Of a DNA stretch of 64,000 bases, positions 23,831 to 49,583 are shown piece after piece. Where the stretch lies: assembly GCA_023261815.1 (NCBI GenBank), contig JALNKA010000001.1, forward strand, positions 97,347 through 161,346. The letters are read 5' to 3'. A program made the position numbers and the translations under genes. Source of the DNA: Candidatus Wolframiiraptor sinensis (GTDB lineage: Archaea; Thermoproteota; Nitrososphaeria_A; Caldarchaeales; Wolframiiraptoraceae). A model generated the notes under the pieces. It had not been told where the DNA came from, searched no databases, and saw only the letters and a list, made by a program, of their open reading frames with translations. How positions within the stretch are numbered: position 1 is the first letter of the stretch; each line of letters begins with the position of its first letter.

Positions 23831-23833
23831 ATC

Positions 23834-29523: not shown

Positions 29524-29529
29524 TGTTGG

Positions 29530-30147: not shown

Positions 30148-30184
30148 TTCGTGAACGCCTCATGGTGAGTGAGGTGATCGAGAA

Positions 30185-33409: not shown

Positions 33410-34474
33410 CTAGCAGATTCTCGGAATCGGGTCTCCAATGGGCATCGGCAGATACCTTAATCCGCCTATCTCGGTCTCGACCACGACGCCCTCATGCTCG
33501 CCCGAGAACCACCCTATGATCTCGGCCTCGCGGCCCATCGGGTGGGATCGAAGAGCTTCCAGAACATCTTCCGCGAACTTCTCGGAGACCGCTAAGACCA
33601 CTCTTCCCTCGCATGCCAGTTCAAGGGGGTCTATGCCGAGTATCTCGCAGCCGGTTCTCACCTCATCGCGGATCGGTATGAGTGCCTCTTTAACCAAGAT
33701 GCCGAAGCCCGTGGCCTCGCTCCACTCGTTTAGAAGCGCCGCCAACCCTCCTCTCGTTGGATCCTTCGCCGCTAGGACTCCTCCAGCCTCGAGAGCCCTC
33801 TCCATTAGGTGGTTTAATGGCGCGGTGTCGGATCTTAGGCCCGGCGCCTCGAAGCCAAGCTCACCCCTCGCGGCTATTATCGTCATTGCGTGATCTCCGA
33901 TGGGCCCTGAAACTATCAGCCTATCTCCCGGTTTTATATTTCGTGGATCAAGCCACCTCGATCTCAGGGACCTGCCATCAGATGCCGCCTTCTCCAAGTT
34001 CTTGTCCAGATGCGGGCTTCTCCTCCCGATGCCGGCCGTATTGATTATCATCTCATCGAGCTTTCCCCTCTCGACGACCTTCGTGTCTCCTGTCACGATC
34101 TCGACTCCCGCCTCCTCGGCAGCCTCCTCCATGCTCGATAATATTCTATCGAGCTTCTCGATCTCGAATCCTTCCTCGATCACGAGGGCGCATGAGATCG
34201 CCAGCGGCTCGCTCCCGATCACGGAGAGGTCGTTCACGGTCCCTGAGATGCTCAGCCTCCCGATATCCCCTCCGGGGAAGAAGAGGGGCTTAACCGTGTA
34301 TGAGTCTGTCGTGAAGGCTATTCCGTTGACCACGGCTGAGTCCGTGAGAAGCGTAAGAGGGATTTCAACGCTTCTCCTCTGCTTGAACCTCGGTAGAATG
34401 TGCTCCTTGATGAGCTTGTGCATGTATAGGCCGCCAGCACCATGCGCTATGCTTATCTTCTCATCCGCCTTCAC
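33410..34474 (-). CDS. hypE: hydrogenase maturation protein HypE
   Basis: AIR-synthase-related fold ending in the conserved C-terminal PRIC. Confidence 0.9.
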   Translation of the reverse strand: MKADEKISIAHGAGGLYMHKLIKEHILPRFKQRRSVEIPLTLLTDSAVVNGIAFTTDSYTVKPLFFPGGDIGRLSISGTVNDLSVIGSEPLAISCALVIEEGFEIEKLDRILSSMEEAAEEAGVEIVTGDTKVVERGKLDEMIINTAGIGRRSPHLDKNLEKAASDGRSLRSRWLDPRNIKPGDRLIVSGPIGDHAMTIIAARGELGFEAPGLRSDTAPLNHLMERALEAGGVLAAKDPTRGGLAALLNEWSEATGFGILVKEALIPIRDEVRTGCEILGIDPLELACEGRVVLAVSEKFAEDVLEALRSHPMGREAEIIGWFSGEHEGVVVETEIGGLRYLPMPIGDPIPRIC

Positions 34475-34496: not shown

Positions 34497-35675
34497 TCAT
34501 AACCTCCTTACATATTTTGTTCCATGATTTATCCTGCATGCTTCACTCATACACCTGAAATCCTTGACGAGAATCCTGTTCTGCGCCCAGATCCTGCATG
34601 TTCCCTCAAGCCCCACCATCGGTGGGCCGATCGGGGTTGATGGCGTGCACGCCTTCATGTATAACGGGCAGTCCGGTGGATTTATTATCCCCTTTATTAT
34701 CTCGGCGCATCTGGCCTCTTGCGGGAAGTAGTCTCCCCCACCGCGCTCTAGCCCGTAAACCCGCCTCGCGTCGTCCTGGGAGAACTTCTCCTTGAGATTC
34801 ATCGCGCTCGCGGGTATGATCGCGACCCCCCTCCAGTAGCCATCCTCGAAATCGAAGACCTCTTGTAGCGCTTTCTGCGCCTTCAGGTTTCCTTCCCACG
34901 TCACGGATCTCACGTACTCGTTTTCCATTCTCGGAACATTCTCCCTCAACTGCTTGAGGATCATGTATATGGCTACAAGGACATCTATGGGCTCGAATCC
35001 CGCGAAGACCATGGGCTTCCCGCACTTATCGAAGTACGGCTTATACGCCCTCATGCCGCTCACGGTCGAGGCATGGCCTGGGTTTATGAAAGCATCTATC
35101 TCGAGATCCTCAGATTCGGCTAGAAACCCCACCGCCGGCGGAACATACCTATGAGCCGAGAGAACCTTAAGATTTCTCGGAAGGCCTTTCAGAATATAGT
35201 ACGCTACTGTGGGCGCAGTCGTCTCGAATCCAGCTCCCAAGAAGACGTACTCGCTATCAGGATTGCTGCTGGCGATCCTAACGGCGTCCATGAAGCTGTA
35301 CACGACCCCGACCTTCCCTCCATCGGCCGCGCAGTCCTCGAGCGAGATCATCCTCGAGCCCTTTGCCCTCGACACGTCGCCGTATGTGAGGACGTTGATT
35401 CCATCTAGTGCGAGCTTCACCGCCACGTCTATATCAGATGCGGGGGTTATGCAGACGGGGCACCCGGGTCCACCCCTAACCTCGATATTATCCGGGAGGA
35501 GAGCCCTAATACCCCAGTGAGTTATAGTCCATTCATGAGTTCCGCACACGTGCATTATCCTTATCTTTGGAAGATCCCTCGCGAGATCCCAAATCCTCGC
35601 GACTAACTTTCTAGCTAGAGCCGGGTCCCTATATCTCGAGAGAACGGCTTTCATGGGATCGGCGGAATCCACCAT
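34497..35675 (-). CDS. hypD: hydrogenase maturation protein HypD
   Basis: CGTHE and GPGCPVC motifs. Confidence 0.9.
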   Translation of the reverse strand: MVDSADPMKAVLSRYRDPALARKLVARIWDLARDLPKIRIMHVCGTHEWTITHWGIRALLPDNIEVRGGPGCPVCITPASDIDVAVKLALDGINVLTYGDVSRAKGSRMISLEDCAADGGKVGVVYSFMDAVRIASSNPDSEYVFLGAGFETTAPTVAYYILKGLPRNLKVLSAHRYVPPAVGFLAESEDLEIDAFINPGHASTVSGMRAYKPYFDKCGKPMVFAGFEPIDVLVAIYMILKQLRENVPRMENEYVRSVTWEGNLKAQKALQEVFDFEDGYWRGVAIIPASAMNLKEKFSQDDARRVYGLERGGGDYFPQEARCAEIIKGIINPPDCPLYMKACTPSTPIGPPMVGLEGTCRIWAQNRILVKDFRCMSEACRINHGTKYVRRL

Positions 35676-35760: not shown

Positions 35761-36252
35761 ATGAGCTGGAGGGAGAGGCTCGAGCAGATCCTCAACAGCG
35801 TATCGGTGAGCGGCGGAGACCTGGTTATCGTCGGGATAGGAAACACGCTTCGCGGAGATGATGGAGTTGGAGTCGAGCTCGCAAGAATCCTGAAAGAGTC
35901 CATGAAGAGCGAGCGCGCAAAAGTATTCATCGTGGAGGATAAAGTTGACCTAATTCCGAAAATGCTGAGGGATGTGAATCCCGGGATCATTCTGCTCTTG
36001 GATGCGGCGGACTTCGGAGGCAGGCCAGGAGAGATCAGAATCATGAAGCTTGAGGAAGCCTCGAGAAAAGCCATCTCGACGCATGAACTGCCCCTAGACC
36101 TTATCATGAAAGCAGCCGGAATAAGCGCACCGGCATACGTCCTAGGAATACAAGTTGAAAACCTAGAATTTGGAAAGGAAGTGAGCCCCCAAGTTAAGGC
36201 AGCGGCGAATGAGGTTGCGAGCCTCCTATTAAAGCTCGTGGTGAGCTTGTGA
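35761..36252 (+). CDS. hydrogenase maturation endopeptidase (HycI family), second copy
   Basis: GIGNTLRGDDGVG motif. Lies immediately upstream of the group-4 hydrogenase cluster. Confidence 0.8.
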   Translation: MSWRERLEQILNSVSVSGGDLVIVGIGNTLRGDDGVGVELARILKESMKSERAKVFIVEDKVDLIPKMLRDVNPGIILLLDAADFGGRPGEIRIMKLEEASRKAISTHELPLDLIMKAAGISAPAYVLGIQVENLEFGKEVSPQVKAAANEVASLLLKLVVSL

Positions 36253-36329
36253 TATTACTGCGTTATAAACTCCGCATGCGCCGAGACTAAACTTAAATTT
36301 GGGTTACCGGACTGTAGTGTTGACCTTTC

Positions 36330-36659
36330 ATGGAGGAGCTCATCATCGCGCTTACCGTAACATTTCTTGTGATCCTCCTCATTTATCTCTTAGGCGGCAG
36401 GTTATCCGTTAAGGCTCCTAAAAGCAGGATGAAGCTCGAGCCCTATGCTTGCGGGGAGAGCCTTCCCCCGGCTAGAAGTCCGATAAGGCTACTCTTTTTC
36501 AACTTTGCCGCGCTATTCCTAGTATTCGATGTCATCGCCCTCTTCCTGGCATTCACGATAAATATTCCGCCAGCATATAAGCCCGGAGTAATCAGCCTTC
36601 TCATGCTTTACATGCTCGTGCTCGGGATCGCGATCCAGCTCCTGGGAAGAAGGAGGTGA
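36330..36659 (+). CDS. NuoA/ND3-like membrane subunit
   Basis: Three TM helices and the LEPYACGE motif. Confidence 0.75.
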   Translation: MEELIIALTVTFLVILLIYLLGGRLSVKAPKSRMKLEPYACGESLPPARSPIRLLFFNFAALFLVFDVIALFLAFTINIPPAYKPGVISLLMLYMLVLGIAIQLLGRRR

Positions 36660-36666
36660 ATGCCAT

Positions 36667-37107
36667 TTGGGCCTTGTCGAGAAGCTCGTGAGAAAATGTA
36701 GGGCGAGAAGCCCTTGGATACTCCTATTCGATACCGGAGCATGCAATGCATGCGATATAGAGATCGCCGCTTGCCTCACACCGCGCTATGATGTCGAGAG
36801 ATTCGGGGTTCTCGCGAAAGGCAGCCCTAGGCACGCGGACATACTCGTCATTACCGGGCCCGTTACCAGGCAGGTCAGGGATAGGCTCATTAGGATCTAT
36901 GAGCAAATGCCGGAGCCGAAGTACGTGGTCGCCGCAGGCACCTGCGCTACAAGCGGCGGGGTATACTGGGGGTGCTACAATACGTATCCGAGCCTTGACT
37001 CCGTCATTCCGGTTCATGCGTATGTCTCGGGTTGCCCAGTGAAGCCTGAGGCGATTCTGAGGGCGATCAGCGTGCTCGTCGAGAAGATCGAGAAGGGGGA
37101 GGCTTAA
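36667..37107 (+). CDS. NuoB/PSST-like (group-4 hydrogenase small subunit type)
   Basis: DTGACNACDIE, GTCATSGG and GCPVKPE cluster N2/proximal-cluster motifs. Confidence 0.85.
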   Translation: MGLVEKLVRKCRARSPWILLFDTGACNACDIEIAACLTPRYDVERFGVLAKGSPRHADILVITGPVTRQVRDRLIRIYEQMPEPKYVVAAGTCATSGGVYWGCYNTYPSLDSVIPVHAYVSGCPVKPEAILRAISVLVEKIEKGEA

Positions 37108-37108
37108 G

Positions 37109-37579
37109 TTGAGCGAGGAGGGTCTTCTCAGAAAGATTACTGAGAGATTTGGAGATAAGATAATTGAAGCTAAGGTTCTCGGGAAGAGAAGGGTCTCCAT
37201 CCTAGTTTCTCCTGATGCTTACAAGGATGTCGTGAGATATGCCGCCCAAGATCTCGGCTTGGAGTTTCTCAGCTGCCTGAGTGGGGTTGATCGGGGAGAT
37301 AGCCTTGAGGTCGTGGTGCACTTGGGATACTCGATGCACGTGCTCATCAAAACCCGCGTCTCTAAGGATGATCCAGCCGTGGACTCGATAACCGATATTC
37401 TCCCAGCCGCGAGCCTCTACGAACGGGAAATACATGATCTGCTGGGCATCGCATTCAAGGGCCACCCGAATCTCAAGAGGATCTTCTTGCCCGAGGATTG
37501 GCCCGAAGGAGTTTACCCGCTTAGGAAGGATTACTCTCCAGAGCATCCAAAGCCATTGAGGGGTGGTGAGGCCGTGTGA
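37109..37579 (+). CDS. NuoC (30 kDa)-like subunit
   Basis: NuoC fold (ERExHDLLGIxFxGHP). Confidence 0.8.
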   Translation: MSEEGLLRKITERFGDKIIEAKVLGKRRVSILVSPDAYKDVVRYAAQDLGLEFLSCLSGVDRGDSLEVVVHLGYSMHVLIKTRVSKDDPAVDSITDILPAASLYEREIHDLLGIAFKGHPNLKRIFLPEDWPEGVYPLRKDYSPEHPKPLRGGEAV

Positions 37580-38769
37580 ACTTCGAGGTTCCGATAGGCC
37601 CCCAGCACCCAATACACGTCGAGCCCCTGATGCTCAGGCTGAAGGTCGAGGGGGAGCTGATAGTAGACGCCGACGTAGATGTCAGCTATATTCATAGGGG
37701 CATCGAGAAGGCTCTCGAGCTCAGGCCATATATTCAGGGACTCTACCTCGTTGAAAGAATATGCGGCATATGCAATGCCGCTCAATCGCTCTGCTACTGC
37801 CTCAATGTCGAGCAGCTTCTCGGCAAGGAGGCTCCCCCTAGGGCGAGGTATCTCAGGATCGTGGTGGAGGAGCTTAGCAGGATTCACAGCCACCTCCTCT
37901 GGCTCGGCCACTACCTCCACACGCTGGGATTTGAGACCCTCTTCATGTACTTCTGGAGGGATAGGGAGAGGGTAATGGACATGCTGGAGCTCATCACGGG
38001 TAATAGAGTCACCACGGCCTATAACACGATAGGCGGAGTGAGGAGGGATCTGCCTCCGGGTGCGGAGCAGAAGCTCAGGAGAACATTGGATTACATCGAG
38101 GAGAGAGTGCGCTACTATGAGAAGGTGATAGACTCGGAGCCGACCATCCTCGCGAGAACTCAGCGGGTTGGGATCCTCAAGCCGGGAGATGCGGTGAGAA
38201 TGGGCGTCACGGGCCCGCACCTAAGAGCCTCAGGAATAAAGCACGATGTCAGGCTCGATGACCCGTATAGCGGGCATGATGAAATCCCGTTCAACGTCAT
38301 CACGTGGGACACGTGCGATTGCTACGCCAGAGTGAAGGTTAGGCTCAGGGAAACCAGCGAATGCGTGAACATGATACGCTATGCTCTCGATCACATGCCA
38401 TCCGGCGACTATAGGCTGAAGATCCCGCCGTTCTTCAAAGCCCCTCCCGGGGAGTCGTTATCGAGGGTTGAGGCGCCGAGGGGCGAGCTCGTCCATTACT
38501 CGATCTCGGATGGCGGTGATAGGCCATACAGGTATAGGGTTAGGACGCCGACGCTCGCGAACCTCCTATCCGTAGTAGAGATGCTCAGGAGCAGGGGCGA
38601 CTACGAGGTCTACATAGCCGATGTCCCGGCGATCCTCGGCGGAATAGATCCATGCATATGCTGCAGCGCGAGGATCTTGATCACCGACGAGGCCAAGAAA
38701 AGGAGGATGATCACGACGCTCGACGACATCATAAGATTCTCGCGCGGAAGGAGGGTTGAGAGAAGATGA
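37576..38769 (+). CDS. NuoD-like / group-4 [NiFe] hydrogenase large subunit with Ni-Fe ligand cysteines retained
   Basis: ERICGIC near residue 61 and DPCICCSAR near 38647-38673. Both Cys pairs that true NuoD has lost are present here. Confidence 0.8.
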   Translation: MNFEVPIGPQHPIHVEPLMLRLKVEGELIVDADVDVSYIHRGIEKALELRPYIQGLYLVERICGICNAAQSLCYCLNVEQLLGKEAPPRARYLRIVVEELSRIHSHLLWLGHYLHTLGFETLFMYFWRDRERVMDMLELITGNRVTTAYNTIGGVRRDLPPGAEQKLRRTLDYIEERVRYYEKVIDSEPTILARTQRVGILKPGDAVRMGVTGPHLRASGIKHDVRLDDPYSGHDEIPFNVITWDTCDCYARVKVRLRETSECVNMIRYALDHMPSGDYRLKIPPFFKAPPGESLSRVEAPRGELVHYSISDGGDRPYRYRVRTPTLANLLSVVEMLRSRGDYEVYIADVPAILGGIDPCICCSARILITDEAKKRRMITTLDDIIRFSRGRRVERR

Positions 38770-39731
38770 TCGAGAAGATCCTTGCCACGGTATTCTTCCC
38801 CGGAGCAATCTTCATACTGGCGGTCTCGCTCTTTTACGAGTGGGTTGATAGAAAGCTGTATGCGAGGTTCCAGAACAGGGTTGGCCCCCATCTGGCGGGC
38901 CCCTTTGGGCTCTTCCAGCCGATCGCGGACCTCATCAAGCTACTCTCGAAGGAAGATATCGTTCCAATGGCCACCGATAGGTTCCTCTTCACGCTGACGC
39001 CGATTCTAGCTCCAGCCCTGATCCTCTTCGCCTGCATGTTCCTGCCAGTGGCCGGGCCATCCGGCATAATCTCGTTTGAGGGAGACCTGATAGCAGTGAT
39101 AGCACTTCTCTCGATCTATACGATAACGGTGTATCTCGCCGGCGAGGGCTCGAATAACAGGTTCGCCTCTGTGGGCGCTGTCAGGGCCGCTGTCCAGCTG
39201 CTGGGCTACGAGATACCGCTGACGCTCAGCCTCCTGAGCGTGGCCTTAGCCGCGGGCTCGCTGAGTATTCGCGGAATAGTTGAGGCTCAGGCAGAGAGAG
39301 GTCTCTGGTTCATCGCCGGAATACAGGCAATAGGTTTCGCAATCTTCATCATTGCATCGCAGGCCGAGATGGAGAGGATACCATTCGATATACCGGAGGC
39401 CGAACAAGAGATAGTCGCCGGGTGGGAGGTCGAGTACTCCGGGAAAAGGCTTGCATTATTCAGGCTCTCAAAGGATCTCGAGCTATTCCTCCTCTCGGGG
39501 CTCGGCGCCGCGGTATTCCTGGGAGGCCCAATAGGCCCGGTGATACCGGGGCTCGAGCCGATGCTCTACACAATCTACTTCATCCTGAAGTCCATAATAG
39601 TCCTCGCGATATTCACTTTGGTCAGGGCCCTTTTCGCGAGGCTCAGGATCGATCAAATGGTCTCCTTCTCATGGAGGTATCTCATGCCCCCGGCCATGAT
39701 TCTCATAATCCTGACGGAGGTGATCATGTAG
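38766..39731 (+). CDS. NuoH/ND1-like membrane subunit
   Basis: Eight-TM NuoH pattern ([14 protein letters not shown]). Confidence 0.85.
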
Positions 39732-39733
39732 GG

Positions 39734-40084
39734 ATGAAGGTTCCCGGGCGCCTAGTGGCGGAGGCCCTGAAAAGCTTGTTCAGGAGAAGGGCCACGATTC
39801 TCTACCCATACAGGGAGCTCGACAAAGTTCATCTACCCGAGGGATTCAGGGGAAGAATAGAGTTCGATCGCTCGAAGTGCATCGGGTGCCAGCTCTGCTT
39901 CAGGGTCTGTCCCGCGAAGGCCATCGAGATCGTAGATGATGAGAAGGGAAAGAGGCCGATCTTCTACATCTACAGGTGCATATACTGCGCTCAGTGCGCC
40001 GAGGTCTGCCCGACCAAGGCGATAAGCATGAGCAAGATCTTCGAGAACATCGCCCTAAGAAAGGAGGACATGGTGGTGAGATGA
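39734..40084 (+). CDS. NuoI (TYKY)-like 2x[4Fe-4S] subunit
   Basis: [12 protein letters not shown] and [12 protein letters not shown] motifs. ATG at 39734 directly after the nuoH stop. Confidence 0.85.
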
Positions 40085-40326
40085 TGGAAGCAGTTCTCCA
40101 CATAGCGATGATAGCGCTCACACTCGTCTTCGCGATAATGGCCGCCGAGCTGAAGGACATGATGAAAGCCGTGCTCGCGTTCATGTGCGCGAACATAACC
40201 ATGGCCGCGATATTCTACCTCCTTGGAGCGCCATACCTCAGTGTTTTCCAGCTGCTAGTGTACGCGGGCGCGGTCACGATACTCCTTCTAGCAACGATAC
40301 ATGCTGGCGAGGAGAGGGGTGACTGA
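40081..40326 (+). CDS. NuoJ/ND6-like N-terminal half (3 TM)
   Basis: Small hydrophobic protein in the NuoJ position. Its ATG overlaps the nuoI stop. Confidence 0.5.
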
Positions 40327-40327
40327 G

Positions 40328-40585
40328 ATGGAGATTACGAGAATAGCCGCCGCGATACTCGCGATACTCCTAGCAGCAACTTTACTGGCCTACTCGCCTA
40401 AAATAATCCAGAACATCCGGGCGCCGAGCCTCGAGCCCACGAGGATCGAGGAGAACCCGCAGTTCCTCTGGGCTAATCGCTGGCTCGACCTCCTAGTCCA
40501 GGCATTCATGCTCTTTGCGGTCATCGCGGCGGTCTCCGCCCAGCTTAGGAGGGATATGGGCTCCCGGAGGGCGGAAGGAGAATGA
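40328..40585 (+). CDS. NuoJ/ND6-like C-terminal half (2 TM)
   Basis: A second small membrane protein, one nucleotide after the previous stop. Together the two are NuoJ-sized. Confidence 0.45.
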   Translation: MEITRIAAAILAILLAATLLAYSPKIIQNIRAPSLEPTRIEENPQFLWANRWLDLLVQAFMLFAVIAAVSAQLRRDMGSRRAEGE

Positions 40586-40902
40586 GCCTCCACGAGATCT
40601 ATTTCGCGGGCTCCCTTCTCCTGATAGTCGCCGGTCTCTACGCGATCGCATCGAAGAGGCATCTGGTCAAGATCGTGATAGGTCTCGAGGTCGTGACTCT
40701 GGGAGTGAACTTGGCGATAGCATCCATGGGTGTGAGGATAGTGGATGGCGCCCTTGTGATGGATGCTCTGGCCCAGAGCATGATCGCGATCTCGATAGCG
40801 GTGGCCGCGGCGATAACCGCATTAGCCCTATCAATAGCCCTAAACATCTACAGGCATTATGGGACATTCGACATCAGGAAGCTTAGGAGGCTGAGATGGT
40901 GA
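40582..40902 (+). CDS. NuoK/ND4L-like subunit
   Basis: Three-TM protein with the conserved Glu-containing helices (GLEVVTLGVNLA). Confidence 0.75.
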   Translation: MSLHEIYFAGSLLLIVAGLYAIASKRHLVKIVIGLEVVTLGVNLAIASMGVRIVDGALVMDALAQSMIAISIAVAAAITALALSIALNIYRHYGTFDIRKLRRLRW

Positions 40903-42455
40903 TAATCGTGAATCCTCTTAACATAATCTTGATCCTGATCGGAGCCGCGTTCCTCATCGTAATCCTCGACCCGATCTTCAGGAGGGCGAGGTTAATAGAG
41001 TTCGGGGGCGTGATCGCGAGCCTCGCGTTCACCGCGACGCTGATAATCTTGGCGATTGAGGCGGCAGCCGGGGCCACAGCTAGAACGGTGATATTCGGTC
41101 CGGATTCCCCTTTAACAGCCTCGCTCAAACTCGACGCACTAAGCATCTACCTCTCGATGATCTTCTCCGGCCTCGGCCTCATGGCCTCAATATACTCGAT
41201 CAGATACATGCTCTTCGATGTCGAGCATCTGCCCCTCGATGACCTCCTCTGGACCAGGAGAAGAGAGCTGGGCTTTGACAGATACTATGCCCTCCTCCTG
41301 ACACTGGTCGCGGGGATGATCGGCGTCACCATGGCAAACGATTTCTTCACGCTCTACGTATTCTGGGAGCTCATGGCGATCTCATCATATTCGCTCGTCG
41401 CTTTCAGGAAGTGGTCTTGGGAGGCGGTCGAGGCGGGCTTCAAGTATCTCGTAATGAGCACCCTCGGATCGCTCGCAGCGCTCCTCGGGATAGCCCTGCT
41501 CTATGGGCTCGCTGGCTCGCTCCGATTCGACGCCGTAAGGGCCGCGGTCTTCGGCGGAAACATTGCGGCCACATTCTCCCTCGCGATGATCGTGATAGGC
41601 TTCGGCGTAACGGCCGCGATCGTCCCATTCCACTCCTGGCTCCCCGACGCGCACTCCGCAGCGCCAACCCCCATCGTAGTCCTATCCGGGGTCGTGATCA
41701 AAACCGGCGTCTACGCGATACTCTGGTCCATGTTCAGGGTATTTGGCCCGGCAACATACGGCTTCGGCCCAATCCTGATAGGCCTCGGCATCCTTACGAT
41801 GAGCTTCGCCAACATCGCCGCCCTGATGCAGACGGATATCAAGAGATTTCTAGCATACTCGAGCATAGCCAACATAGGTTACATAGTCATGGGGCTGGGG
41901 CTCGCAGCCCACATCCTGAAAGCACATCCATCCGAGATCGGGCCAGCGGCTCTCGCGCTAGCCGGAGTACTCCTCCACGTGCTCAACCACGCGCTCGGAA
42001 AGGGCCTCTCATTCCTCTCAGCAGGATGTTACATAATCAGGACGGGATCCAGAGAGATAGGAAGCCTCGAGGGAGTCGGGCCCAGAATGCCCATAACAAC
42101 GGCATCGCTCGGAGTTGGGCTACTGAACCTCGCCGGAGTCCCGCCGCTGAGCGGATTCTGGAGCAAGCTCCTCATAATCTCGGCCGGCCTCGGTGTTCCC
42201 TCGGACAACCTGATGCTCGCGGCGACGATAATCTTCATACTGAACAGCATCTTAGCGGCCGGCGGCTACCTCTGGCTCCTCCAAAGGCTGGCCTTCAAGA
42301 GACCGGGATCGAGCGGGGCTTACGGGGAGATTAAGGAGGCGCCCCCGCTCATGCTAGCGCCCCTAATAATCCTCGCGGCCGCCTGCATAATGGTCACGCT
42401 CATGCTGAACCCGATCCTCCAGTTCATACAAAATATCCTGGAGGTGATCATGTGA
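40896..42455 (+). CDS. NuoM/ND4-like (Mrp antiporter-like) subunit
   Basis: FHSWLPDAHSAAPTPIVVLSGVVIKTG motif. Confidence 0.75.
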   Translation: MVIIVNPLNIILILIGAAFLIVILDPIFRRARLIEFGGVIASLAFTATLIILAIEAAAGATARTVIFGPDSPLTASLKLDALSIYLSMIFSGLGLMASIYSIRYMLFDVEHLPLDDLLWTRRRELGFDRYYALLLTLVAGMIGVTMANDFFTLYVFWELMAISSYSLVAFRKWSWEAVEAGFKYLVMSTLGSLAALLGIALLYGLAGSLRFDAVRAAVFGGNIAATFSLAMIVIGFGVTAAIVPFHSWLPDAHSAAPTPIVVLSGVVIKTGVYAILWSMFRVFGPATYGFGPILIGLGILTMSFANIAALMQTDIKRFLAYSSIANIGYIVMGLGLAAHILKAHPSEIGPAALALAGVLLHVLNHALGKGLSFLSAGCYIIRTGSREIGSLEGVGPRMPITTASLGVGLLNLAGVPPLSGFWSKLLIISAGLGVPSDNLMLAATIIFILNSILAAGGYLWLLQRLAFKRPGSSGAYGEIKEAPPLMLAPLIILAAACIMVTLMLNPILQFIQNILEVIM

Positions 42456-44452
42456 TGAGCCTCGAGCTCTGGGCTATGCAGGCCTGGGCTAGCTGGATTA
42501 TACCGCTGGTCGGCGCACTGCTGACGCCACTTCTCGCCAGGATCGGCGGCAGGGCGAGGGATTATGGAGCCGTGGCATTCTCATTCCTCGCGATGCTGAT
42601 GACCTTGAGCCTGATACCGCTATTGTTCGAGGATGTTAGCTGGCCTTTGAGGAGCCAGGTTTCATGGGTGCTTCTGCCGGAAGCGCCGGCGCTCTCGGAG
42701 ATAAAGGCCGGGATTATGCTCGACCCGCTCAGCATAATAATGGCTAACATCGTCTCGGCGGTCAGCTTCCTGATAATGGTCTACTCTCTCGGATACATGC
42801 ACGGGGACCCGGGCCTCACGAGATACTGGTTCTTCATGAACTTCTTCATCGCGAACATGCTCCTCCTAGTGCTCGCCGACAACCTCATTCTCATGCTGGT
42901 CGGCTGGGAGGGCGTGGGCCTCTGCAGCTACGCGCTCATAGGCTACTGGTATCAGGACTCGAGGGGGGGCTGGCTGCACTACTGGGTCGGCGAGCCGCCA
43001 GAAACTTACCCGCCATCACACTGCGGCATGAAGGCCTTCATGGTAACTAGGCTCGGAGATCTCTTCATGATCGCGGGGATACTGATCCTAGCGGCCGCCG
43101 TCAAGACCGTGAGCTTCCCAGAGCTCATACACGCCGACTCGCTAGCCCCAGCGGACCTTAGATGGCTCCTCCCGATCTCCCTCATACTGATCCTCGGCGG
43201 GGCCGTGGGCAAGTCGGCTCAGCTGCCGCTAATGGAGTGGCTCCCGGACGCGATGGCCGGCCCATCATCCGTCAGCGCGCTGATCCACGCTGCCACGATG
43301 GTTAAGGCCGGGGTATACCTCGTCGCGAGGCTCTTCCCCATAGCTGTCAGCTGGAGCGCGAGCCTGCCGGCGACGATGAGCTTCTTCTATACGGTCATGT
43401 GGATCGGGGCTTTAACGGCATTCATCGCCGCTAGCCAGGCAATAGTCTCCACCGAGCTCAAGAAGGTTCTAGCATACTCGACCGTCAGTCAGATAGGATA
43501 CATGATGATGGCCCTCGGCGCCGCCGGCCTCTCGGCCGAGATAATAAGCGGATATATGGCCTCGATATTCCACATGATGAATCACGCTGTCTTTAAGGCT
43601 GCACTCTTCCTCGCGGCCGGCTCGATAATTCACGCATCAGGATCGAGGTTCCTGAGGGATATGGGCGGCCTCCGGAAAAGCATGCCGATAACGTTCTACA
43701 GCACGCTTCTCGCGACCCTAGCTCTCATGGGCCTACCCCCCTTCGGCGGATTCTGGAGCAAAGACCTAGTCCTCTCAGCAGCATTATCCTCCGGAGAATA
43801 TGCGGTCTTCATTCTCGGCTTAGCCACGGCGATCCTAACAGCATTCTACAGCATCAGGATGATAGGGCTGGCCTTCTACGGCGGGAAGCGCGAGAAGGCA
43901 CATGAGGCGCCGAGGATCATGTGGGCGCCATACTTGATTCTAGCGGCTCTCAGCCTCGCGCTGGGCCTGATCGCCCCTATGCTCGAGGGATTCCTCGAGG
44001 AATCCCTATCACGCATCCTACCCATCCACGCGCATAAGGTGGGCGAGACTCATGGAGCGCAGTTCATCATCCCGCTGGCATCGATTATCGCCATCATCGT
44101 TGGAGCGGCTCCAGCCTACCTGATCTACGTGAGGAGGGTTAAGAGCTCGGAGGAGATAGTCGAGAGGCGCGGCTACATGAGGGTGCTCAGGACACTACTG
44201 GTTAGAAGATACTACATCAATGCCTTCTACTACAGGGCCATCGCCTATCCCTCAATAAGGCTCGGTTGCGCGATCCAGAGAGCATTCGAGTCCAGGGTGA
44301 TAGAGGGAATGAATGAAGCGCTATCCATCGGAGCGAGAAGATTCTCTGACATCATTAGGAGGGTGCACACGGGCTTATTGAACCACTATGTTATTGGGCT
44401 CATCCTCGGTGCCCTAATACTCATAATCCTAATCCTGGCTGGAGGTGCCTGA
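42452..44452 (+). CDS. NuoL/ND5-like antiporter subunit with a long C-terminal extension
   Basis: 666 aa with the WLPDAMAGPSSVSALIHAATMV motif and a C-terminal amphipathic arm. Confidence 0.8.
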   Translation: MMSLELWAMQAWASWIIPLVGALLTPLLARIGGRARDYGAVAFSFLAMLMTLSLIPLLFEDVSWPLRSQVSWVLLPEAPALSEIKAGIMLDPLSIIMANIVSAVSFLIMVYSLGYMHGDPGLTRYWFFMNFFIANMLLLVLADNLILMLVGWEGVGLCSYALIGYWYQDSRGGWLHYWVGEPPETYPPSHCGMKAFMVTRLGDLFMIAGILILAAAVKTVSFPELIHADSLAPADLRWLLPISLILILGGAVGKSAQLPLMEWLPDAMAGPSSVSALIHAATMVKAGVYLVARLFPIAVSWSASLPATMSFFYTVMWIGALTAFIAASQAIVSTELKKVLAYSTVSQIGYMMMALGAAGLSAEIISGYMASIFHMMNHAVFKAALFLAAGSIIHASGSRFLRDMGGLRKSMPITFYSTLLATLALMGLPPFGGFWSKDLVLSAALSSGEYAVFILGLATAILTAFYSIRMIGLAFYGGKREKAHEAPRIMWAPYLILAALSLALGLIAPMLEGFLEESLSRILPIHAHKVGETHGAQFIIPLASIIAIIVGAAPAYLIYVRRVKSSEEIVERRGYMRVLRTLLVRRYYINAFYYRAIAYPSIRLGCAIQRAFESRVIEGMNEALSIGARRFSDIIRRVHTGLLNHYVIGLILGALILIILILAGGA

Positions 44453-44455
44453 AAA

Positions 44456-45940
44456 ATGATGGACGCGCATCACCTGCTCCTCCAATCCATAATCGCCCCT
44501 CTCATAGCCTCGCCGATAATCCTGGCACTCGGCGGCAGGTTCGGGAGAAAGGTTGGCTGGGTCGCGCTGATCCCGCTAGTCTATTCCGTGTTATGCCTAA
44601 TCACCGCGGGATACGTGGTCCATGAATCCGGCTCGCCACTCCAGGCATCCTATCCATGGGTTCAGCTCCTCGGAGACTTCATACTCCTCTTCGACGGCTT
44701 GAGCGGCCCAATCGCCATGACGATCGCTGTGGTCGGGCTCCTAGCATGCATCTACTCGATCGCCTACATGGATCTCCGCGATGGATGGGGAGGCTACTTC
44801 TCCTTATACCTCCTCTTCGACGCTGGCATGCTAGGTGCAGCTCTCTCCGCGAACCTTGCAGCCTTCTTCATCTTCATCGAGCTCATGCTGATAGCATCAT
44901 GGCTCCTGATAGCATTATGGGGCGGTGAGGATAGATGGCGCGCGGCCCTCAAATACTTCCTCTACACTAAGGCGGGAGCCTTGATCCTCTTGGCAGGCAT
45001 AGGGCTAACATACTCCATCGTGGGAACGCTGAACATCCTCGAGCTCGCCTCGAAGGCCGCCGGCCTGAGCTCTTCCATGATCTCCCTAATAGCCTCGCTG
45101 ATGATAGTAGGCTTCCTCGTTAAGATGGCGATCTTCCCGCTCCACTCCTGGCTTCCCGACGCCTACGTCCAGTCTCCAGCCCCCGTTACGGCGATATTCT
45201 CGGCTGGGACCGGCATAGGGGGCTACGCTGCTCTTAGGATAATCTACACCGCCTTCCCGCAAATGATCTCGCAGAGGGGCTTCATGCTCGCGCTGCTCGC
45301 CCTCGCCCTGATAACGATGATCTACGGCGGATACCTGGCCCTCGCGCAGAACAATCTGAAGAGGCTTCTAGCGTATTCCAGCATAAGCCAGATGGGCTAC
45401 ATGCTTCTCGGCGTAGCCTCGGCTTCAATCATAGGGCTGGCCGGAGCCGCGCTGATATACGTGGCCCACAGCCTCTCGAAGGCTATACTTTTCATGATCT
45501 CGGGAATGCTCTCTAGGACCATTGGCACAGATAACTTGGACGAGCTCGGCGGCCTAGCCGGAAGAATGCGAGCCATGAGCATAGCCTTCATGGTGGGATT
45601 CCTGAGCCTGATGGGCTATCCGCCGCTCCTCGGATTCTGGGGGGAGCTCCTCATCTTCGCCGGATCGATATACTCAGCGCTCCACCCCCCATTCGATGCG
45701 CTGAGGCTCGTGCTAACGATGATCGCGATAATCTTCTCGCTGATCACCGCGGGATACGGGCTCTGGGCAATAAGAAGAAGCTTATTTGGGGAGGAGTCCG
45801 AGGCCGTGAGAAGAAGCGGGCCCGAGCCGCGGCTCATGCTAGCGCCCATAATCGCCTCCGCAATACTCTTGGCGGCTCTGGGAATCTACCCGACCATGTT
45901 GACGAAGCTCCTTGAAACCTTGGCCTTAATCCTCGGCTAG
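44456..45940 (+). CDS. NuoN/ND2-like antiporter subunit
   Basis: LHSWLPDAYVQSPAPVTAIFSAG motif. Confidence 0.75.
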   Translation: MMDAHHLLLQSIIAPLIASPIILALGGRFGRKVGWVALIPLVYSVLCLITAGYVVHESGSPLQASYPWVQLLGDFILLFDGLSGPIAMTIAVVGLLACIYSIAYMDLRDGWGGYFSLYLLFDAGMLGAALSANLAAFFIFIELMLIASWLLIALWGGEDRWRAALKYFLYTKAGALILLAGIGLTYSIVGTLNILELASKAAGLSSSMISLIASLMIVGFLVKMAIFPLHSWLPDAYVQSPAPVTAIFSAGTGIGGYAALRIIYTAFPQMISQRGFMLALLALALITMIYGGYLALAQNNLKRLLAYSSISQMGYMLLGVASASIIGLAGAALIYVAHSLSKAILFMISGMLSRTIGTDNLDELGGLAGRMRAMSIAFMVGFLSLMGYPPLLGFWGELLIFAGSIYSALHPPFDALRLVLTMIAIIFSLITAGYGLWAIRRSLFGEESEAVRRSGPEPRLMLAPIIASAILLAALGIYPTMLTKLLETLALILG

Positions 45941-46150
45941 GCTCATGGCCTCCTCGATCGCTCTCAGCATCTCGAGAGCGCTCTTCTCATCTAGGACCCT
46001 TATCGCATATCCCGCGTGGACTAGGACGTAGTCGCCCACTCCGGCGTCAACCATCGCCAAGATAACCTCCCTCCTAACACCATTGCCGAAGTCCACGACC
46101 CCGATATCCCCCTTTACCTCGACGACCTTGCCGGGAACTGCGTAGCACAT
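45926..46150 (-). CDS. hypC: hydrogenase maturation chaperone HypC
   Basis: MCYAVPGKVVEV N-terminus in a 74-aa protein. Confidence 0.85.
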   Translation of the reverse strand: MCYAVPGKVVEVKGDIGVVDFGNGVRREVILAMVDAGVGDYVLVHAGYAIRVLDEKSALEMLRAIEEAMSLAED

Positions 46151-46187: not shown

Positions 46188-46595
46188 CTAATGGATGGGC
46201 ATAATCATGTAGGTCAGCTGCTTTATCCTCCCAATACCCCTCAGCCTTCTAACAAGCTCCTTGATCTCGGAGGCCCTACCCCGGACGGCCACGACGAGCA
46301 GGCAATCCTCTTCCGAGAGATGAATGTGGAGGCTCGATGGTATGAGCTTCAGGAACTCGTGCTGGGCATCGGTCAGCTTCTCCTCGATGCCATGCTCCTC
46401 GTGAGAGTAGTGGATGAGAATCGCGCCGGCAACCTCCTCATCAGCAATCCTCCAGGAGTTCATCGCGATGAAGCCCCTCACAGCTTCTTGAATCGCCTGA
46501 GATCTAGACGCTATCCCAAGATCCCCGATAATCCTATCGAATGTCTTCAGGAGGTCCTCGGGAAAGGAGACGCCCGTCCTAATAATCCTCCCCAT
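46188..46595 (-). CDS. nikR: nickel-responsive regulator NikR
   Basis: Ribbon-helix-helix N-terminus and a Ni-binding C-domain (HYSHEEH...HIHLSEEDC). Confidence 0.8.
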   Translation of the reverse strand: MGRIIRTGVSFPEDLLKTFDRIIGDLGIASRSQAIQEAVRGFIAMNSWRIADEEVAGAILIHYSHEEHGIEEKLTDAQHEFLKLIPSSLHIHLSEEDCLLVVAVRGRASEIKELVRRLRGIGRIKQLTYMIMPIH

Positions 46596-49536: not shown

Positions 49537-49583
49537 GATGGGATAATGGTAACATGCTGTATTTAACCATCGACGCGCGAGGA

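What the first reader, a model, noticed from the sequence alone, without database searches (positions are those of the whole stretch)
35761..45940. Complex-I-like 12-gene cluster whose NuoD homologue keeps all four Ni-Fe cysteine ligands
The cluster nuoA-B-C-D-H-I-J1-J2-K-M-L-N is in near-canonical complex-I order and includes all three large antiporter-like subunits (519, 666 and 494 aa) with a long NuoL C-terminal arm.

The NuoD-like protein has RICGIC and DPCICCSAR, so it is a [NiFe] hydrogenase large subunit. The NuoB-like protein keeps its cluster cysteines.

The cluster is flanked by a HycI-type protease, hypC, nikR and hypD/hypE. It is therefore an energy-converting group-4 hydrogenase with a full complex-I-type membrane arm rather than a respiratory Nuo complex. 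It has no NuoEFG.
Basis: partly seen in the sequence, partly recalled or inferred. Interest (0 to 1): 0.65.

Follow-up and report, generated by a model that had tools for sequence, protein, structure and literature searches.

The report
Complex-I-shaped membrane [NiFe] hydrogenase operon
This is a real 12-gene operon for a membrane-bound hydrogen-making/consuming enzyme built like respiratory complex I, but this kind of enzyme ("Hfo", group 4g) was already described in related archaea, so here it is a new member rather than a new thing.

Summary
Window 36330-45940 (+) is a tightly packed operon: NuoA, B, C, D, H, I, a split J, K and three antiporter-like subunits. A HycI-type protease precedes it, and hypD/hypE, hypC and nikR flank it. 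The NuoD homologue is a genuine [NiFe] hydrogenase large subunit. C63/C66/C360/C363 align to the published Ni-Fe ligands of MbhL, the catalytic Glu and Arg are kept, and a 31-residue cleavable tail is present.

The 666-aa subunit is a true NuoL with the long lateral helix. NuoH is closer to complex I than to Mbh or Hyc. The small subunit is Mbh-like. There is no Na+ module and no NuoEFG in the operon.

The same gene order occurs in Wolframiiraptor (identical flanks), Thermofilaceae, other Thermoprotei, Bathyarchaeia and Methanomethylicus. Loh et al. 2021 described this architecture as "Hfo", an Fpo-like 11-subunit hydrogenase of HydDB subgroup 4g. Buessecker et al. 2022 noted the enzyme in W. 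gerlachensis as "Mbh-Mrp".

Minor points:
- The antiporter order is MbhH-like, then L, then M.
- Two clade-conserved Lys substitutions occur in the proton relay.
- The L1 motif has a window-specific His-to-Gln change.

The parts
35761..36252 (+). HycI-type hydrogenase maturation endopeptidase. It presumably removes the C-terminal tail of the large subunit.
   Evidence: Pfam HycI 2e-11. NCBIfam TIGR00072 scores 101 bits against a cutoff of 47. A protease sits in the same position in relatives.
36330..36659 (+). NuoA/FpoA-like membrane subunit
   Evidence: Pfam Oxidored_q4 1.6e-8. The PYACGE and FDV motifs are conserved across the clade.
36667..37107 (+). NuoB-like hydrogenase small subunit carrying one [4Fe-4S] cluster
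   Evidence: Pfam Oxidored_q6 2e-30. The best solved match is MbhJ at 2e-46. C26/C29/C93/C123 align to the MbhJ ligands, and the motif is GACNAC (CxxC type).
37109..37579 (+). NuoC-like subunit
   Evidence: Pfam Complex1_30kDa 1e-34.
37576..38769 (+). NuoD-like [NiFe] hydrogenase large subunit. L1 is RICGICNAAQS, L2 is DPCICCSAR, followed by a 31-aa tail.
   Evidence: HycE 1.8e-78 and MbhL 4.7e-69, with all four Cys in register. The Cys are invariant in 25 relatives. The predicted fold matches 7z0s_E with TM 0.77.
38766..39731 (+). [quoted passage not shown]
   Evidence: Pfam NADHdh 4e-93. It scores 185 bits against Nqo8, 110 against MbhM and 69 against HycD.
39734..40084 (+). NuoI-like 2x[4Fe-4S] subunit, the probable ferredoxin entry point
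   Evidence: Fer4 domains. NCBIfam NuoI/HyfH-type hits. The start is taken at the internal ATG, giving 116 aa as in L003.
40081..40326 (+). N-terminal half of NuoJ (MbhD-like, three TM helices)
   Evidence: Pfam Oxidored_q3 7e-10 and MbhD 5e-7. MbhD 8e-4. The FQLxVYAGA motif is conserved.
40301..40585 (+). Small membrane protein, probably the C-terminal half of NuoJ
   Evidence: No Pfam or NCBIfam hit. J1+J2 concatenated aligns across Nqo10 residues 9-164 (E 0.018). It is present at the same position in all relatives.
40582..40902 (+). NuoK/MrpC-like subunit
   Evidence: Pfam Oxidored_q2 3e-20. The TM2 Glu is conserved; the TM3 Glu is absent.
40896..42455 (+). Antiporter-like subunit 1 (MbhH/HyfB-like), probably in the proximal NuoN position
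   Evidence: NCBIfam best hits are HyfB and PRK08376. The best solved match is MbhH at 6e-62. The TM7 Lys is Thr, conserved in the clade.
42452..44452 (+). NuoL, with the C-terminal lateral helix and final TM helix
   Evidence: It aligns to Nqo12 residues 60-601 of 606 and to E. coli NuoL residues 58-610 of 613, E 1e-88. TIGR01974 scores 513 bits against a cutoff of 407. All relay residues are kept.
44456..45940 (+). NuoM-family antiporter-like subunit
   Evidence: TIGR01972 scores 304 bits against a cutoff of 264. The TM8 Lys is Gly, conserved in the clade, and the TM12 residue is Lys.
45926..46150 (-). HypC chaperone
   Evidence: tblastn with L001 HypC gives 60% identity, 1e-26. TIGR00074 scores 67 bits against a cutoff of 48.
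46188..46595 (-). NikR nickel-responsive regulator
   Evidence: Pfam NikR_C 6e-22 and RHH_1.
34497..35675 (-). HypD
   Evidence: Pfam HypD 4e-123.
33410..34474 (-). HypE
   Evidence: Pfam AIRS and AIRS_C. It is syntenic with L001 and L002.

Best explanation
The operon encodes an energy-converting, ferredoxin-dependent group-4 [NiFe] hydrogenase of the 'Hfo' (Fpo/Nuo-like, HydDB 4g) type.

Proposed mechanism:
1. Reduced ferredoxin docks on the NuoI-like subunit.
2. Electrons pass through its two [4Fe-4S] clusters to the single cluster of the NuoB-like small subunit.
3. They then reach the Ni-Fe site in the NuoD-like subunit, where protons are reduced to H2.
4. The energy released at the D/B/H interface is transmitted through a complex-I-type membrane arm: NuoH, A, split J, K, an MbhH-like subunit, NuoM-like and NuoL with its lateral helix. 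This arm moves ions, most likely protons, out of the cell.

The enzyme should be reversible, giving H2-driven, gradient-consuming ferredoxin reduction. In this fermentative, tungsten- and ferredoxin-oxidoreductase-rich lineage, H2 evolution is the more likely physiological direction.

The large subunit is matured by HypC/D/E/F and trimmed after Arg366 by the adjacent HycI-type protease. NikR probably ties expression to nickel.

What is shown: subunit identities, ligand conservation, operon structure and conservation of the architecture. What is inferred: the electron donor, the direction, the ion and the stoichiometry.
For: - **Subunit identities:**
- **Active site:** the Ni-Fe ligands, catalytic Glu and Arg, and cleavable tail are in register with HycE and MbhL.
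- **Small subunit:** hydrogenase-type CxxC motif, closest to MbhJ.
- **NuoL:** full-length match including the lateral helix, above the curated family cutoff.
- **NuoH:** complex-I-like, keeping the PFDxPEAEQE acidic cluster.
- **Electron donor:** no NuoEFG, FpoFO, formate dehydrogenase, CODH or MbhABC genes lie in the operon, which leaves ferredoxin as the donor.
- **Operon structure:** tight gene packing.
- **Conservation:** the same 12-gene order occurs in Wolframiiraptor sp. with identical flanks, and in Thermoprotei, Thermofilaceae, Nitrososphaeria, Bathyarchaeia and Methanomethylicus. All relatives down to 44% identity keep the four Cys.
- **Phylogeny:** an NJ tree nests the protein among hydrogenases, apart from Cys-less NuoD.
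- **Literature:** PMC7886697 defines Hfo with these features and assigns it to HydDB 4g. PMC9246946 proposes ferredoxin-driven H2 evolution and proton-motive-force generation for the W. gerlachensis enzyme.
Against: - No member of subgroup 4g has been characterised biochemically (PMC7886697). Donor, direction, ion and stoichiometry therefore all rest on homology.
- The L1 His is Gln in this genome only. From my own knowledge, Gln occupies this position naturally in H2-sensing group 2b hydrogenases, so it is probably tolerated, but its effect is unknown.
- Two of the three antiporter-like subunits each lack one canonical Lys: TM7 Lys to Thr in subunit 1, and TM8 Lys to Gly in the NuoM-like subunit. 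The NuoK TM3 Glu is also absent. Full complex-I-like pumping is therefore not assured.
- Loh et al. argued for the opposite direction (H2 to ferredoxin) in acetogenic Bathyarchaeia.
- The HydDB classifier itself was not run.
Confidence: 0.8

Rival explanations
1. The enzyme is the same, but its physiological role is reversed. It oxidises H2 and uses the membrane potential to reduce ferredoxin for biosynthesis or CO2 fixation, as proposed for Hfo in acetogenic Bathyarchaeia and as known for Eha/Ehb/Ech in methanogens.
For: PMC7886697 proposes this direction for Hfo and notes co-occurrence with a Hox-type hydrogenase. The window likewise carries a NuoF-linked soluble hydrogenase next to the operon. 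Group 4 enzymes are reversible in general.
Against: The closest named relatives (Wolframiiraptor, 79% identity, identical flanks) are described as sugar- and peptide-fermenting anaerobes. In them, tungsten-dependent ferredoxin oxidoreductases make reduced ferredoxin that must be reoxidised, and no Rnf was found (PMC9246946). No Wood-Ljungdahl or CO2-fixation genes were seen next to the operon, although most of the 64-kb window outside roughly 17.5-51.8 kb was not family-scanned.
Confidence: 0.25
2. It is an Mbh-Mrp-type Na+/H+-exchanging hydrogenase (group 4d-like), as annotated for W. gerlachensis. It would have a single proton-pumping antiporter subunit and a sodium module.
For: PMC9246946 calls the homologous enzyme 'Mbh-Mrp'. 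The small subunit and antiporter-like subunit 1 are closest to MbhJ and MbhH. J1 matches MbhD.
Against: The operon has no MbhA/B/C/F (MrpE/F/G/B) homologues. It has three antiporter-like subunits rather than one, and a true NuoL with the lateral helix. NuoH is far closer to complex I than to MbhM. The gene order is Nuo-like. PMC7886697 explicitly separates Hfo-like clusters from Mbh by the missing Na+ module.
Confidence: 0.07
3. It is a respiratory Nuo/Fpo-like ferredoxin:quinone (or other acceptor) oxidoreductase whose NuoD merely retains ancestral cysteines without binding Ni-Fe.
For: The gene order and the membrane subunits are complex-I-like. NCBIfam FpoD/NuoD models give the highest scores for the D subunit, although below their cutoffs (354 against 600, and 349 against 360). 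The fold search cannot separate HycE from NuoD.
Against: - All four Cys, the catalytic Glu and Arg and the protease-cleavable tail are invariant across a large clade.
- A dedicated HycI-type protease, hypCDE and nikR are physically linked to the operon.
- The quinone ligands His38 and Tyr87 of Nqo4 are replaced by V15 and G64.
- NuoB has CxxC, not the complex-I CC motif.
- In the tree the protein lies among hydrogenases, not with Cys-less NuoD.
Confidence: 0.03
4. In this particular genome the enzyme is crippled or decaying, because the otherwise almost invariant L1 histidine is replaced by glutamine.
For: His is present in 118 of 120 homologues, including the 89%-identical nearest relative. 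A neighbouring group 3b hydrogenase beta-subunit gene looks fragmented, so some decay or sequence error exists nearby.
Against: All 12 genes are intact, with no frameshifts, and the overlapping start and stop codons are preserved. The change is a single third-position substitution (CAY to CAA). Another homologue (P0102) also has Gln. From my own knowledge, Gln is the natural residue at this site in active H2-sensing hydrogenases.
Confidence: 0.03

Closest known systems
Hfo, the Fpo-like 11-subunit [NiFe] hydrogenase of Bathyarchaeia, and the Hfo-like clusters of Ca. Methanomethylicus and Pyrodictium (HydDB subgroup 4g; Loh et al. 2021, PMC7886697)
   Same: - The same eleven Nuo/Fpo-homologous subunits in Nuo/Fpo gene order.
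- L1/L2 Ni-Fe motifs retained.
- No FpoFO or NuoEFG, and no Mbh Na+ module.
- A Methanomethylicus sp. locus shows the same A-B-C-D-H-I-J1-J2-K-antiporter order up to the end of its contig, which cuts into the first antiporter gene, and has a 57%-identical large subunit.
- Bathyarchaeia loci share the order.
- A NuoF-linked (Hox-like) soluble hydrogenase co-occurs.
   Different: - The host lineage is different: Caldarchaeales/Wolframiiraptoraceae-like, with a large subunit only about 50-57% identical to those of Bathyarchaeia and Methanomethylicus.
- NuoJ is encoded as two ORFs, so there are 12 genes.
- The probable physiological direction is H2 evolution in a fermenter, rather than the H2 uptake proposed for acetogens.
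- The L1 His-to-Gln change is specific to this window.
The type-4 membrane-bound hydrogenase reported in Ca. Wolframiiraptor gerlachensis as 'Mbh-Mrp, 10 subunits' (Buessecker et al. 2022, PMC9246946)
   Same: It is the closest named relative. The Wolframiiraptor sp. large subunit is 79% identical. Its locus L001 has the same operon and the same neighbours in a near-identical arrangement: hypE, hypD, protease, nikR, fmdE-like and ABC transporter. The one difference is hypC, which sits between hypD and the protease in L001 but downstream of the operon here. Both have conserved Cys pairs, and the same ferredoxin-to-H2 energy-conserving role is proposed.
   Different: The published label (Mbh-Mrp, 10 subunits) does not fit the anatomy found here: 12 genes, three antiporter-like subunits including a true NuoL, and no Mrp Na+ module. 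The window comes from a different species or genus (79% identity, against 89% to the best unnamed metagenomic hit).
Pyrococcus furiosus Mbh (group 4d, PDB 6CFW)
   Same: It is a ferredoxin-dependent H2-evolving enzyme. Its Ni-Fe ligands, catalytic Glu and small-subunit cluster ligands align residue for residue. The MbhJ, MbhH and MbhD relatives are the best solved matches for the B subunit, antiporter-like subunit 1 and J1.
   Different: Mbh has 14 subunits, with one antiporter-like subunit and the MbhA-C/F sodium module. It has no NuoL lateral helix, its NuoH homologue is much more distant (110 against 185 bits), and its gene order is different.
Respiratory complex I / NDH-1 / Fpo in the 11-subunit core form
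   Same: The gene order is A-B-C-D-H-I-J-K-(L,M,N). NuoL has the lateral helix. NuoH, NuoM, NuoK and NuoA are family members. In the 11-subunit forms the NADH module is absent and electrons enter from ferredoxin.
   Different: The D subunit keeps the Ni-Fe site and lacks the quinone-binding His and Tyr. The B subunit has CxxC rather than CC. The proximal antiporter subunit is MbhH/HyfB-like rather than NuoN-like. The order is (N-like)-L-M. Dedicated Ni-Fe maturation genes are linked to the operon.
Complex-I-like group 4 hydrogenases of Heimdallarchaeia (groups 4j, 4m, 4p, 4q; Appler et al. 2024 preprint, 10.1101/2024.07.04.601786)
   Same: The concept is the same: a NuoBCDI peripheral arm with an apparently active [NiFe] NuoD on a complex-I-like membrane arm, with no NuoEFG and ferredoxin as the presumed donor.
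   Different: [quoted passage not shown] The archaeal phylum also differs.

Membership tests
Hfo / Fpo-like 11-subunit [NiFe] hydrogenase (HydDB 4g; PMC7886697) | Homologues of all eleven Nuo/Fpo core subunits (A, B, C, D, H, I, J, K, L, M, N) in one cluster, in Nuo/Fpo-like order | tested here: met
   Pfam, NCBIfam and PDB assignments. J is split into two ORFs. The distal order is (MbhH-like)-L-M.
Hfo / Fpo-like 11-subunit [NiFe] hydrogenase (HydDB 4g; PMC7886697) | The D subunit retains the L1 and L2 Ni-Fe binding motifs | tested here: met
   C63/C66/C360/C363 align to MbhL C68/C71/C374/C377. The L1 His is Gln in this genome.
Hfo / Fpo-like 11-subunit [NiFe] hydrogenase (HydDB 4g; PMC7886697) | No FpoFO or NuoEFG input module in the cluster | tested here: met
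   No such ORFs lie between 35761 and 46150. The NuoF-like gene at 27550 belongs to a separate soluble hydrogenase operon.
Hfo / Fpo-like 11-subunit [NiFe] hydrogenase (HydDB 4g; PMC7886697) | No Mbh/Mrp Na+ module (MbhA, B, C, F) | tested here: met
   All ORFs of the operon are accounted for and none matches MrpE/F/G families. The rest of the genome cannot be seen.
Hfo / Fpo-like 11-subunit [NiFe] hydrogenase (HydDB 4g; PMC7886697) | The large subunit falls in HydDB subgroup 4g, in lineage 4g-6 or its sister groups | tested here: inconclusive
   HydDB could not be run. In an NJ tree it clusters with Methanomethylicus, Thermoprotei and Bathyarchaeia sequences that have the same gene order. The tree is a rough distance tree without reference 4g labels.
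Group 4 energy-converting [NiFe] hydrogenases in general | Large subunit with four Cys ligands, a proton-transfer Glu and a C-terminal extension cleaved by a HycI-type protease; small subunit with one [4Fe-4S]; NuoH-type membrane anchor | tested here: met
Mbh (group 4d, P. furiosus type) | 14 subunits MbhA-N, with a single antiporter-like MbhH and the MbhA-C/F sodium module | tested here: not met
   There are three antiporter-like subunits including NuoL, and no MbhA-C/F homologues.
Respiratory complex I / Fpo | NuoD without Ni-Fe cysteines and with the quinone-binding His and Tyr; NuoB with the tandem CC motif | tested here: not met
   The Cys are present. Nqo4 H38 and Y87 align to V15 and G64. 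NuoB has GACNAC. FpoD and NuoD models score below their cutoffs.
Respiratory complex I / Fpo | NuoL with a C-terminal lateral helix spanning the membrane arm | tested here: met
   End-to-end alignment to Nqo12 and E. coli NuoL. TIGR01974 scores above its cutoff.
Formate hydrogenlyase FHL-1/FHL-2 (group 4a, Hyc/Hyf) | Association with formate dehydrogenase H and a HycB/HyfA ferredoxin-like subunit; NuoC fused to the large subunit | tested here: not met
   No FdhF or HycB-like genes are in or beside the operon, and C and D are separate genes. In the tree HycE lies in a different clade.

The most novel reading that the evidence does not exclude
The TACK-archaeal clade to which this operon belongs might be a mechanistically distinct variant, not just another 4g hydrogenase.

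It would be the only catalytically competent hydrogenase lineage with a complete complex-I P-module: a complex-I-type NuoH, three antiporter-like subunits and the NuoL lateral helix. Its proton relay is systematically non-canonical:
- TM7 Lys to Thr/Ser in the proximal subunit.
- TM8 Lys to Gly in the NuoM-like subunit.
- An MrpA-like extra Lys in NuoL.
- No TM3 Glu in NuoK.

This could mean a different pumping stoichiometry. It could also mean the complex is a chimera, with an Mbh-like hydrogenase module sitting on a complex-I-like arm. Either reading would bear directly on how complex I arose from hydrogenases.
Probability: 0.2. Interest if true: 0.55.

Novelty: new member of a known kind. 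Interest (0 to 1): 0.3.

Why it matters
Hydrogenases with a full complex-I architecture are the best living models for how respiratory complex I evolved from proton-reducing enzymes. They probably set the energy yield of fermentation in many uncultured hot-spring and sediment archaea.

None has been purified, assayed or solved. This window offers a complete, intact operon with its maturation genes in one place: protease, hypC/D/E/F and nikR. It comes from a lineage whose close relative (Wolframiiraptor gerlachensis) grows in enrichment culture. That makes it a practical target for expression, activity and cryo-EM work.

As a discovery it adds little. The architecture, its 4g assignment and its evolutionary reading are already published. 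The residue-level notes are new details, not a new system: the Lys substitutions, the Mbh-like B subunit against the complex-I-like H and L subunits, and the His-to-Gln change.

Tried and rejected
- **HydDB classification.** I substituted a distance (NJ) tree of 175 sequences anchored with HycE, MbhL and Nqo4 fragments taken from the PDB alignments. It places the protein among hydrogenases but cannot resolve deep branching or name subgroups.
- **Fold search.** AlphaFold gave pLDDT 73.6, with low confidence around the metal-site loops. The search returned HycE first but NuoD homologues at essentially equal scores, so it does not discriminate.
- **Genome-contig scan.** It therefore missed Wolframiiraptor genomes, and the taxonomic distribution is a lower bound.
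- **HypC motif search.** A regex for the canonical MCLAIP-type N-terminus found nothing. tblastn with the L001 HypC found the gene at 45926-46150.
- **Longer NuoI reading.** The 220-aa ORF at 39422-40084 was rejected as the NuoI gene, because it overlaps NuoH by 310 nt. The internal ATG at 39734 gives the 116-aa size seen in relatives.
- **Opposite-strand ORFs.** Those inside the operon (for example 37531-38220 and 41411-42334) have no support and were ignored.
- **Sister-to-NuoD idea.** I considered whether the large subunit is a sister of NuoD. In the library of cluster representatives, Cys-less sequences first appear at about 40% identity, no closer than many other hydrogenase clusters, and they form a separate clade.

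Full report
**Observation**

The ORF map and translations, together with Pfam and NCBIfam scans, confirm the region. Between 35761 and 45940 on the + strand there is first a HycI-type maturation protease (35761-36252). After a 77-nt gap come twelve genes separated by -26 to +7 nt:

| Coordinates | Product |
|---|---|
| 36330-36659 | NuoA-like |
| 36667-37107 | NuoB-like |
| 37109-37579 | NuoC-like |
| 37576-38769 | NuoD-like |
| 38766-39731 | NuoH |
| 39734-40084 | NuoI-like |
| 40081-40326 | NuoJ/MbhD-like, 81 aa |
| 40301-40585 | Membrane protein, 94 aa, no family hit |
| 40582-40902 | NuoK/MrpC-like |
| 40896-42455 | Antiporter-like, 519 aa |
| 42452-44452 | Antiporter-like, 666 aa |
| 44456-45940 | Antiporter-like, 494 aa |

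- hypD (34497-35675, -) and hypE (33410-34474, -) lie upstream.
- hypC (45926-46150, -) lies downstream. A motif search missed it. tblastn and the curated HypC model found it.
- nikR is at 46188-46595 (-).

**The catalytic module is a hydrogenase, not a Nuo Q-module**

phmmer against all solved structures puts E. coli HycE (1.8e-78) and P. furiosus MbhL (4.7e-69) ahead of Nqo4. The printed alignments place window C63, C66, C360 and C363 on MbhL C68, C71, C374 and C377. These are the residues cited as the Ni-Fe ligands, along with E21, in PMC9585477. E21 aligns to window E16.

In an alignment of 25 relatives these residues, and the Arg of EAPRGE, are invariant. DPCICCSAR aligns exactly with HycE DPCYSCTDR and is followed by a 31-residue tail. 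This fits C-terminal processing by the adjacent protease. That HycE is cleaved after this Arg is established knowledge, not something tested here.

The complex-I quinone ligands Nqo4 His38 and Tyr87 correspond to V15 and G64. The NuoB-like protein is closest to MbhJ (2e-46). Its four cluster cysteines are in register, in a hydrogenase-type CxxC motif rather than the complex-I CC motif.

One oddity is that the His of the L1 motif CGxCxxxH is Gln here (CAA at 37783-37785). It is His in 118 of 120 homologues, including the 89%-identical nearest one.

A predicted structure (pLDDT 73.6, pTM 0.78) matches HycE best. NuoD chains score about equally, so fold alone does not discriminate.

**The membrane arm is complex-I-like**

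- **NuoL.** The 666-aa protein aligns from residue 81 to 658 with Nqo12 residues 60-601 of 606, and with E. coli NuoL residues 58-610 of 613. This includes the C-terminal lateral helix and the last TM helix. It exceeds the curated NuoL family cutoff (513 against 407 bits). MrpA matches only the N-terminal two thirds.
- **NuoH.** It scores 185 bits against Nqo8, but 110 against MbhM and 69 against HycD. It keeps the acidic PFDxPEAEQE segment.
- **NuoM-like.** The 494-aa protein passes the NuoM family cutoff.
- **Proximal antiporter-like subunit.** The 519-aa protein is best matched by HyfB-type models and by MbhH.
- **Subunit order.** The order is therefore K, then an MbhH-like subunit (presumably in the proximal NuoN position), then L, then M. 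It is not M-L-N.
- **Split NuoJ.** The 81-aa and 94-aa proteins together align across Nqo10, weakly (E 0.018). The first matches MbhD. This supports a split NuoJ.
- **No sodium module.** No MrpE/F/G-type (MbhA-C) gene is in the operon.

**Proton-relay residues**

| Subunit | State |
|---|---|
| NuoL | Keeps TM5 Glu, TM7 Lys, TM8 His and TM12 Lys, plus an MrpA-like Lys in MVKAG |
| Proximal antiporter-like subunit | Keeps TM5 Glu, TM8 Lys and TM12 Lys, but has Thr at the TM7 Lys position |
| NuoM-like subunit | Keeps TM5 Glu, TM7 Lys and a TM12 Lys, but has Gly at the TM8 Lys position |
| NuoK | Keeps the TM2 Glu but not the TM3 Glu |

These substitutions are conserved in the archaeal relatives that share the gene order. 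Most bacterial relatives keep the Lys. The substitutions do not refute ion pumping, but they mean that complex-I stoichiometry cannot be assumed.

**Relatives**

The large subunit has thousands of homologues:
- The best is 89% identical.
- Wolframiiraptor, 'Aigarchaeota' and 'Thaumarchaeota' MAGs are about 79% identical.
- Thermoprotei are 60-66% identical.
- Bathyarchaeia and Methanomethylicus are about 55% identical.

A Wolframiiraptor sp. contig (GCA_003660635.1) has the same operon. Its neighbours are also the same (hypE, hypD, hypC, protease, nikR, an FmdE-like gene and a ZnuABC-like transporter), with only hypC differently placed: between hypD and the protease there, downstream of the operon here. 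The window therefore very probably comes from a member of the Wolframiiraptoraceae/Caldarchaeales. This is an inference from similarity and synteny.

The same 12-gene order is found in Thermoprotei, Thermofilaceae, Nitrososphaeria and Bathyarchaeia. It is also found in one further locus preceded by HdrBC-like genes. A Methanomethylicus contig shows the same order as far as it reaches, ending inside the first antiporter gene.

Bacterial relatives at 45-50% identity carry the same subunit types in the order antiporters-J-K-A-B-C-D-H-I-protease. They include Aminicenantes, Elusimicrobiota, Omnitrophota, Chloroflexota and Bacillota. All relatives keep the four cysteines.

In the exhaustive library of cluster representatives, Cys-less NuoD-type sequences first appear at about 40% identity. 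In a rough NJ tree the window clade sits inside the hydrogenases, next to Bathyarchaeia and Thermoprotei, then the bacterial group, then Mbh. The Cys-less NuoD clade is separate.

**What is already known**

- Loh et al. 2021 (PMC7886697) described 'Hfo' in Bathyarchaeia. It is an 11-subunit [NiFe] hydrogenase with the gene organisation of Fpo/Nuo. HydDB classifies it in subgroup 4g. It retains L1/L2 and lacks FpoFO/NuoEFG and the Mbh Na+ module. They reported Hfo-like clusters in Ca. Methanomethylicus and Pyrodictium, and argued that it closes the gap between hydrogenases and complex I.
- Buessecker et al. 2022 (PMC9246946) reported the Wolframiiraptor gerlachensis enzyme as a ferredoxin-dependent type-4 'Mbh-Mrp' hydrogenase with conserved Cys pairs. 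They proposed that it generates the proton-motive force.
- Appler et al. 2024 described complex-I-like group 4 hydrogenases in Heimdallarchaeia that lack one or more antiporter subunits.
- Subgroup 4g is a loose, polyphyletic class with no characterised member.

The finding is therefore correct, but it is a new member of a published kind. The 'Mbh-Mrp, 10 subunits' label in the Wolframiiraptor paper does not match the anatomy seen here.

**Mechanism**

Shown by sequence:
- A Ni-Fe large subunit with maturation machinery.
- A one-cluster small subunit.
- A two-cluster NuoI-like subunit.
- A complex-I-type membrane arm.
- No other substrate module.

Inferred from homology to Mbh, Ech, NDH-1 and the Fpo-like complexes:
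- Reduced ferredoxin donates electrons at NuoI.
- Electrons tunnel through three clusters to Ni-Fe.
- Protons are reduced to H2.
- The redox energy drives ion export through the H/A/J/K channel and up to three antiporter-like subunits held together by the NuoL lateral helix.

The ion is probably H+, because there is no Mrp Na+ module.

Direction is the main open point. The relatives are fermenters that make much reduced ferredoxin and have no Rnf, which favours H2 evolution. Loh et al. favoured H2-driven ferredoxin reduction in acetogens.

**Context**

The window is a hydrogenase island. It contains:
- hypF (19398-21704, -).
- A group 3b sulfhydrogenase-like gene set (21760-25736, -).
- A NuoF-linked soluble hydrogenase operon (27550-32859, +) with its own protease (32856-33350, -).

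**Verdict**

Novelty is low, since this is a new member of a known kind. Interest is modest: the enzyme class matters for complex-I evolution and is still uncharacterised, but nothing here would surprise a specialist who knows the 2021-2024 literature.

Noticed in passing
window 27550-32859 (+): A second hydrogenase operon lies here. It encodes a NuoF/HydB-like diaphorase (657 aa), a NuoG-N-terminal/HoxU-like FeS protein (205 aa), a group 3 [NiFe] large subunit (429 aa) and a 462-aa fusion protein. The fusion joins a [NiFe] small subunit to an [FeFe]-hydrogenase-like FeS domain and a short C-terminal region carrying H-cluster-like motifs (TPCLAKK, CPGGCIRGGGQP). It resembles the hybrid [FeFe]-[NiFe] hydrogenases of Greening et al. 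2024 (PMC11216029). However, the H-domain looks truncated and no TSCCP-type motif was seen.
   Followed up: partly
window 21760-25736 (-): A third [NiFe] hydrogenase, of group 3b sulfhydrogenase type (alpha, delta and gamma subunits), lies next to hypF (19398-21704). Its beta-subunit gene appears broken into at least three ORFs in different frames (25455-25736, 24883-25452, 24649-24786). This could be frameshifts, a pseudogene or assembly errors.
   Followed up: partly
window 37783-37785: The almost invariant His of the L1 motif CGxCxxxH is Gln (codon CAA) in this genome. Among the 120 closest homologues only one other (P0102) has Gln.
   Followed up: partly
window 40896-42455 and 44456-45940; loci L001, L003, L006-L008, L010, L011, L013: There are clade-conserved departures from the canonical antiporter Lys/Glu relay. 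TM7 Lys is Thr/Ser in the MbhH-like subunit, and TM8 Lys is Gly in the NuoM-like subunit. NuoL has an MrpA-like extra Lys (MVKAG), and NuoK lacks the TM3 Glu. Most bacterial relatives keep the Lys residues.
   Followed up: partly
window 41640-41680 (antiporter-like subunit 1, TM8 region): The window protein has a one-residue deletion in the TM8 segment (APTPI-VVLSG) compared with all four aligned relatives (APTPISAVLSG).
   Followed up: no
L005 10001-11538 (P0085 clade, L2 motif DPCMCCMDR): A sister clade of the large subunit is encoded with only NuoB-like and NuoI-like partners and no membrane subunits, next to an FrhB-like gene. It is apparently a soluble three-subunit derivative of a group 4 hydrogenase.
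   Followed up: no
L006 7119-18509: An otherwise identical 12-gene cluster is immediately preceded by HdrC/HdrB-like genes (Fer4_8 and a CCG domain). This recalls the Hdr-linked Ehd/Ehe hydrogenases described for Methanomethylicia and Culexarchaeia.
   Followed up: no
window 46646-49587 (-); L001 12731-15152: An FmdE-domain protein and a ZnuABC-like ABC transporter (ABC-3 permease, ATPase, ZnuA-like binding protein) follow nikR. They are syntenic with the Wolframiiraptor locus. This may be a nickel or other metal uptake system under NikR control.
   Followed up: no
loci L024-L087 (bacterial MAGs: Aminicenantes, Elusimicrobiota, Omnitrophota, Chloroflexota, Bacillota): Bacterial relatives at 45-50% identity carry the same subunit set, including two or three antiporter-like genes, NuoJ-, K- and A-like genes and a HycI-type protease. 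In them the membrane genes come first (L-L-a1-J-K-A-B-C-D-H-I-protease). Multi-antiporter group 4 hydrogenases are therefore widespread outside archaea.
   Followed up: partly
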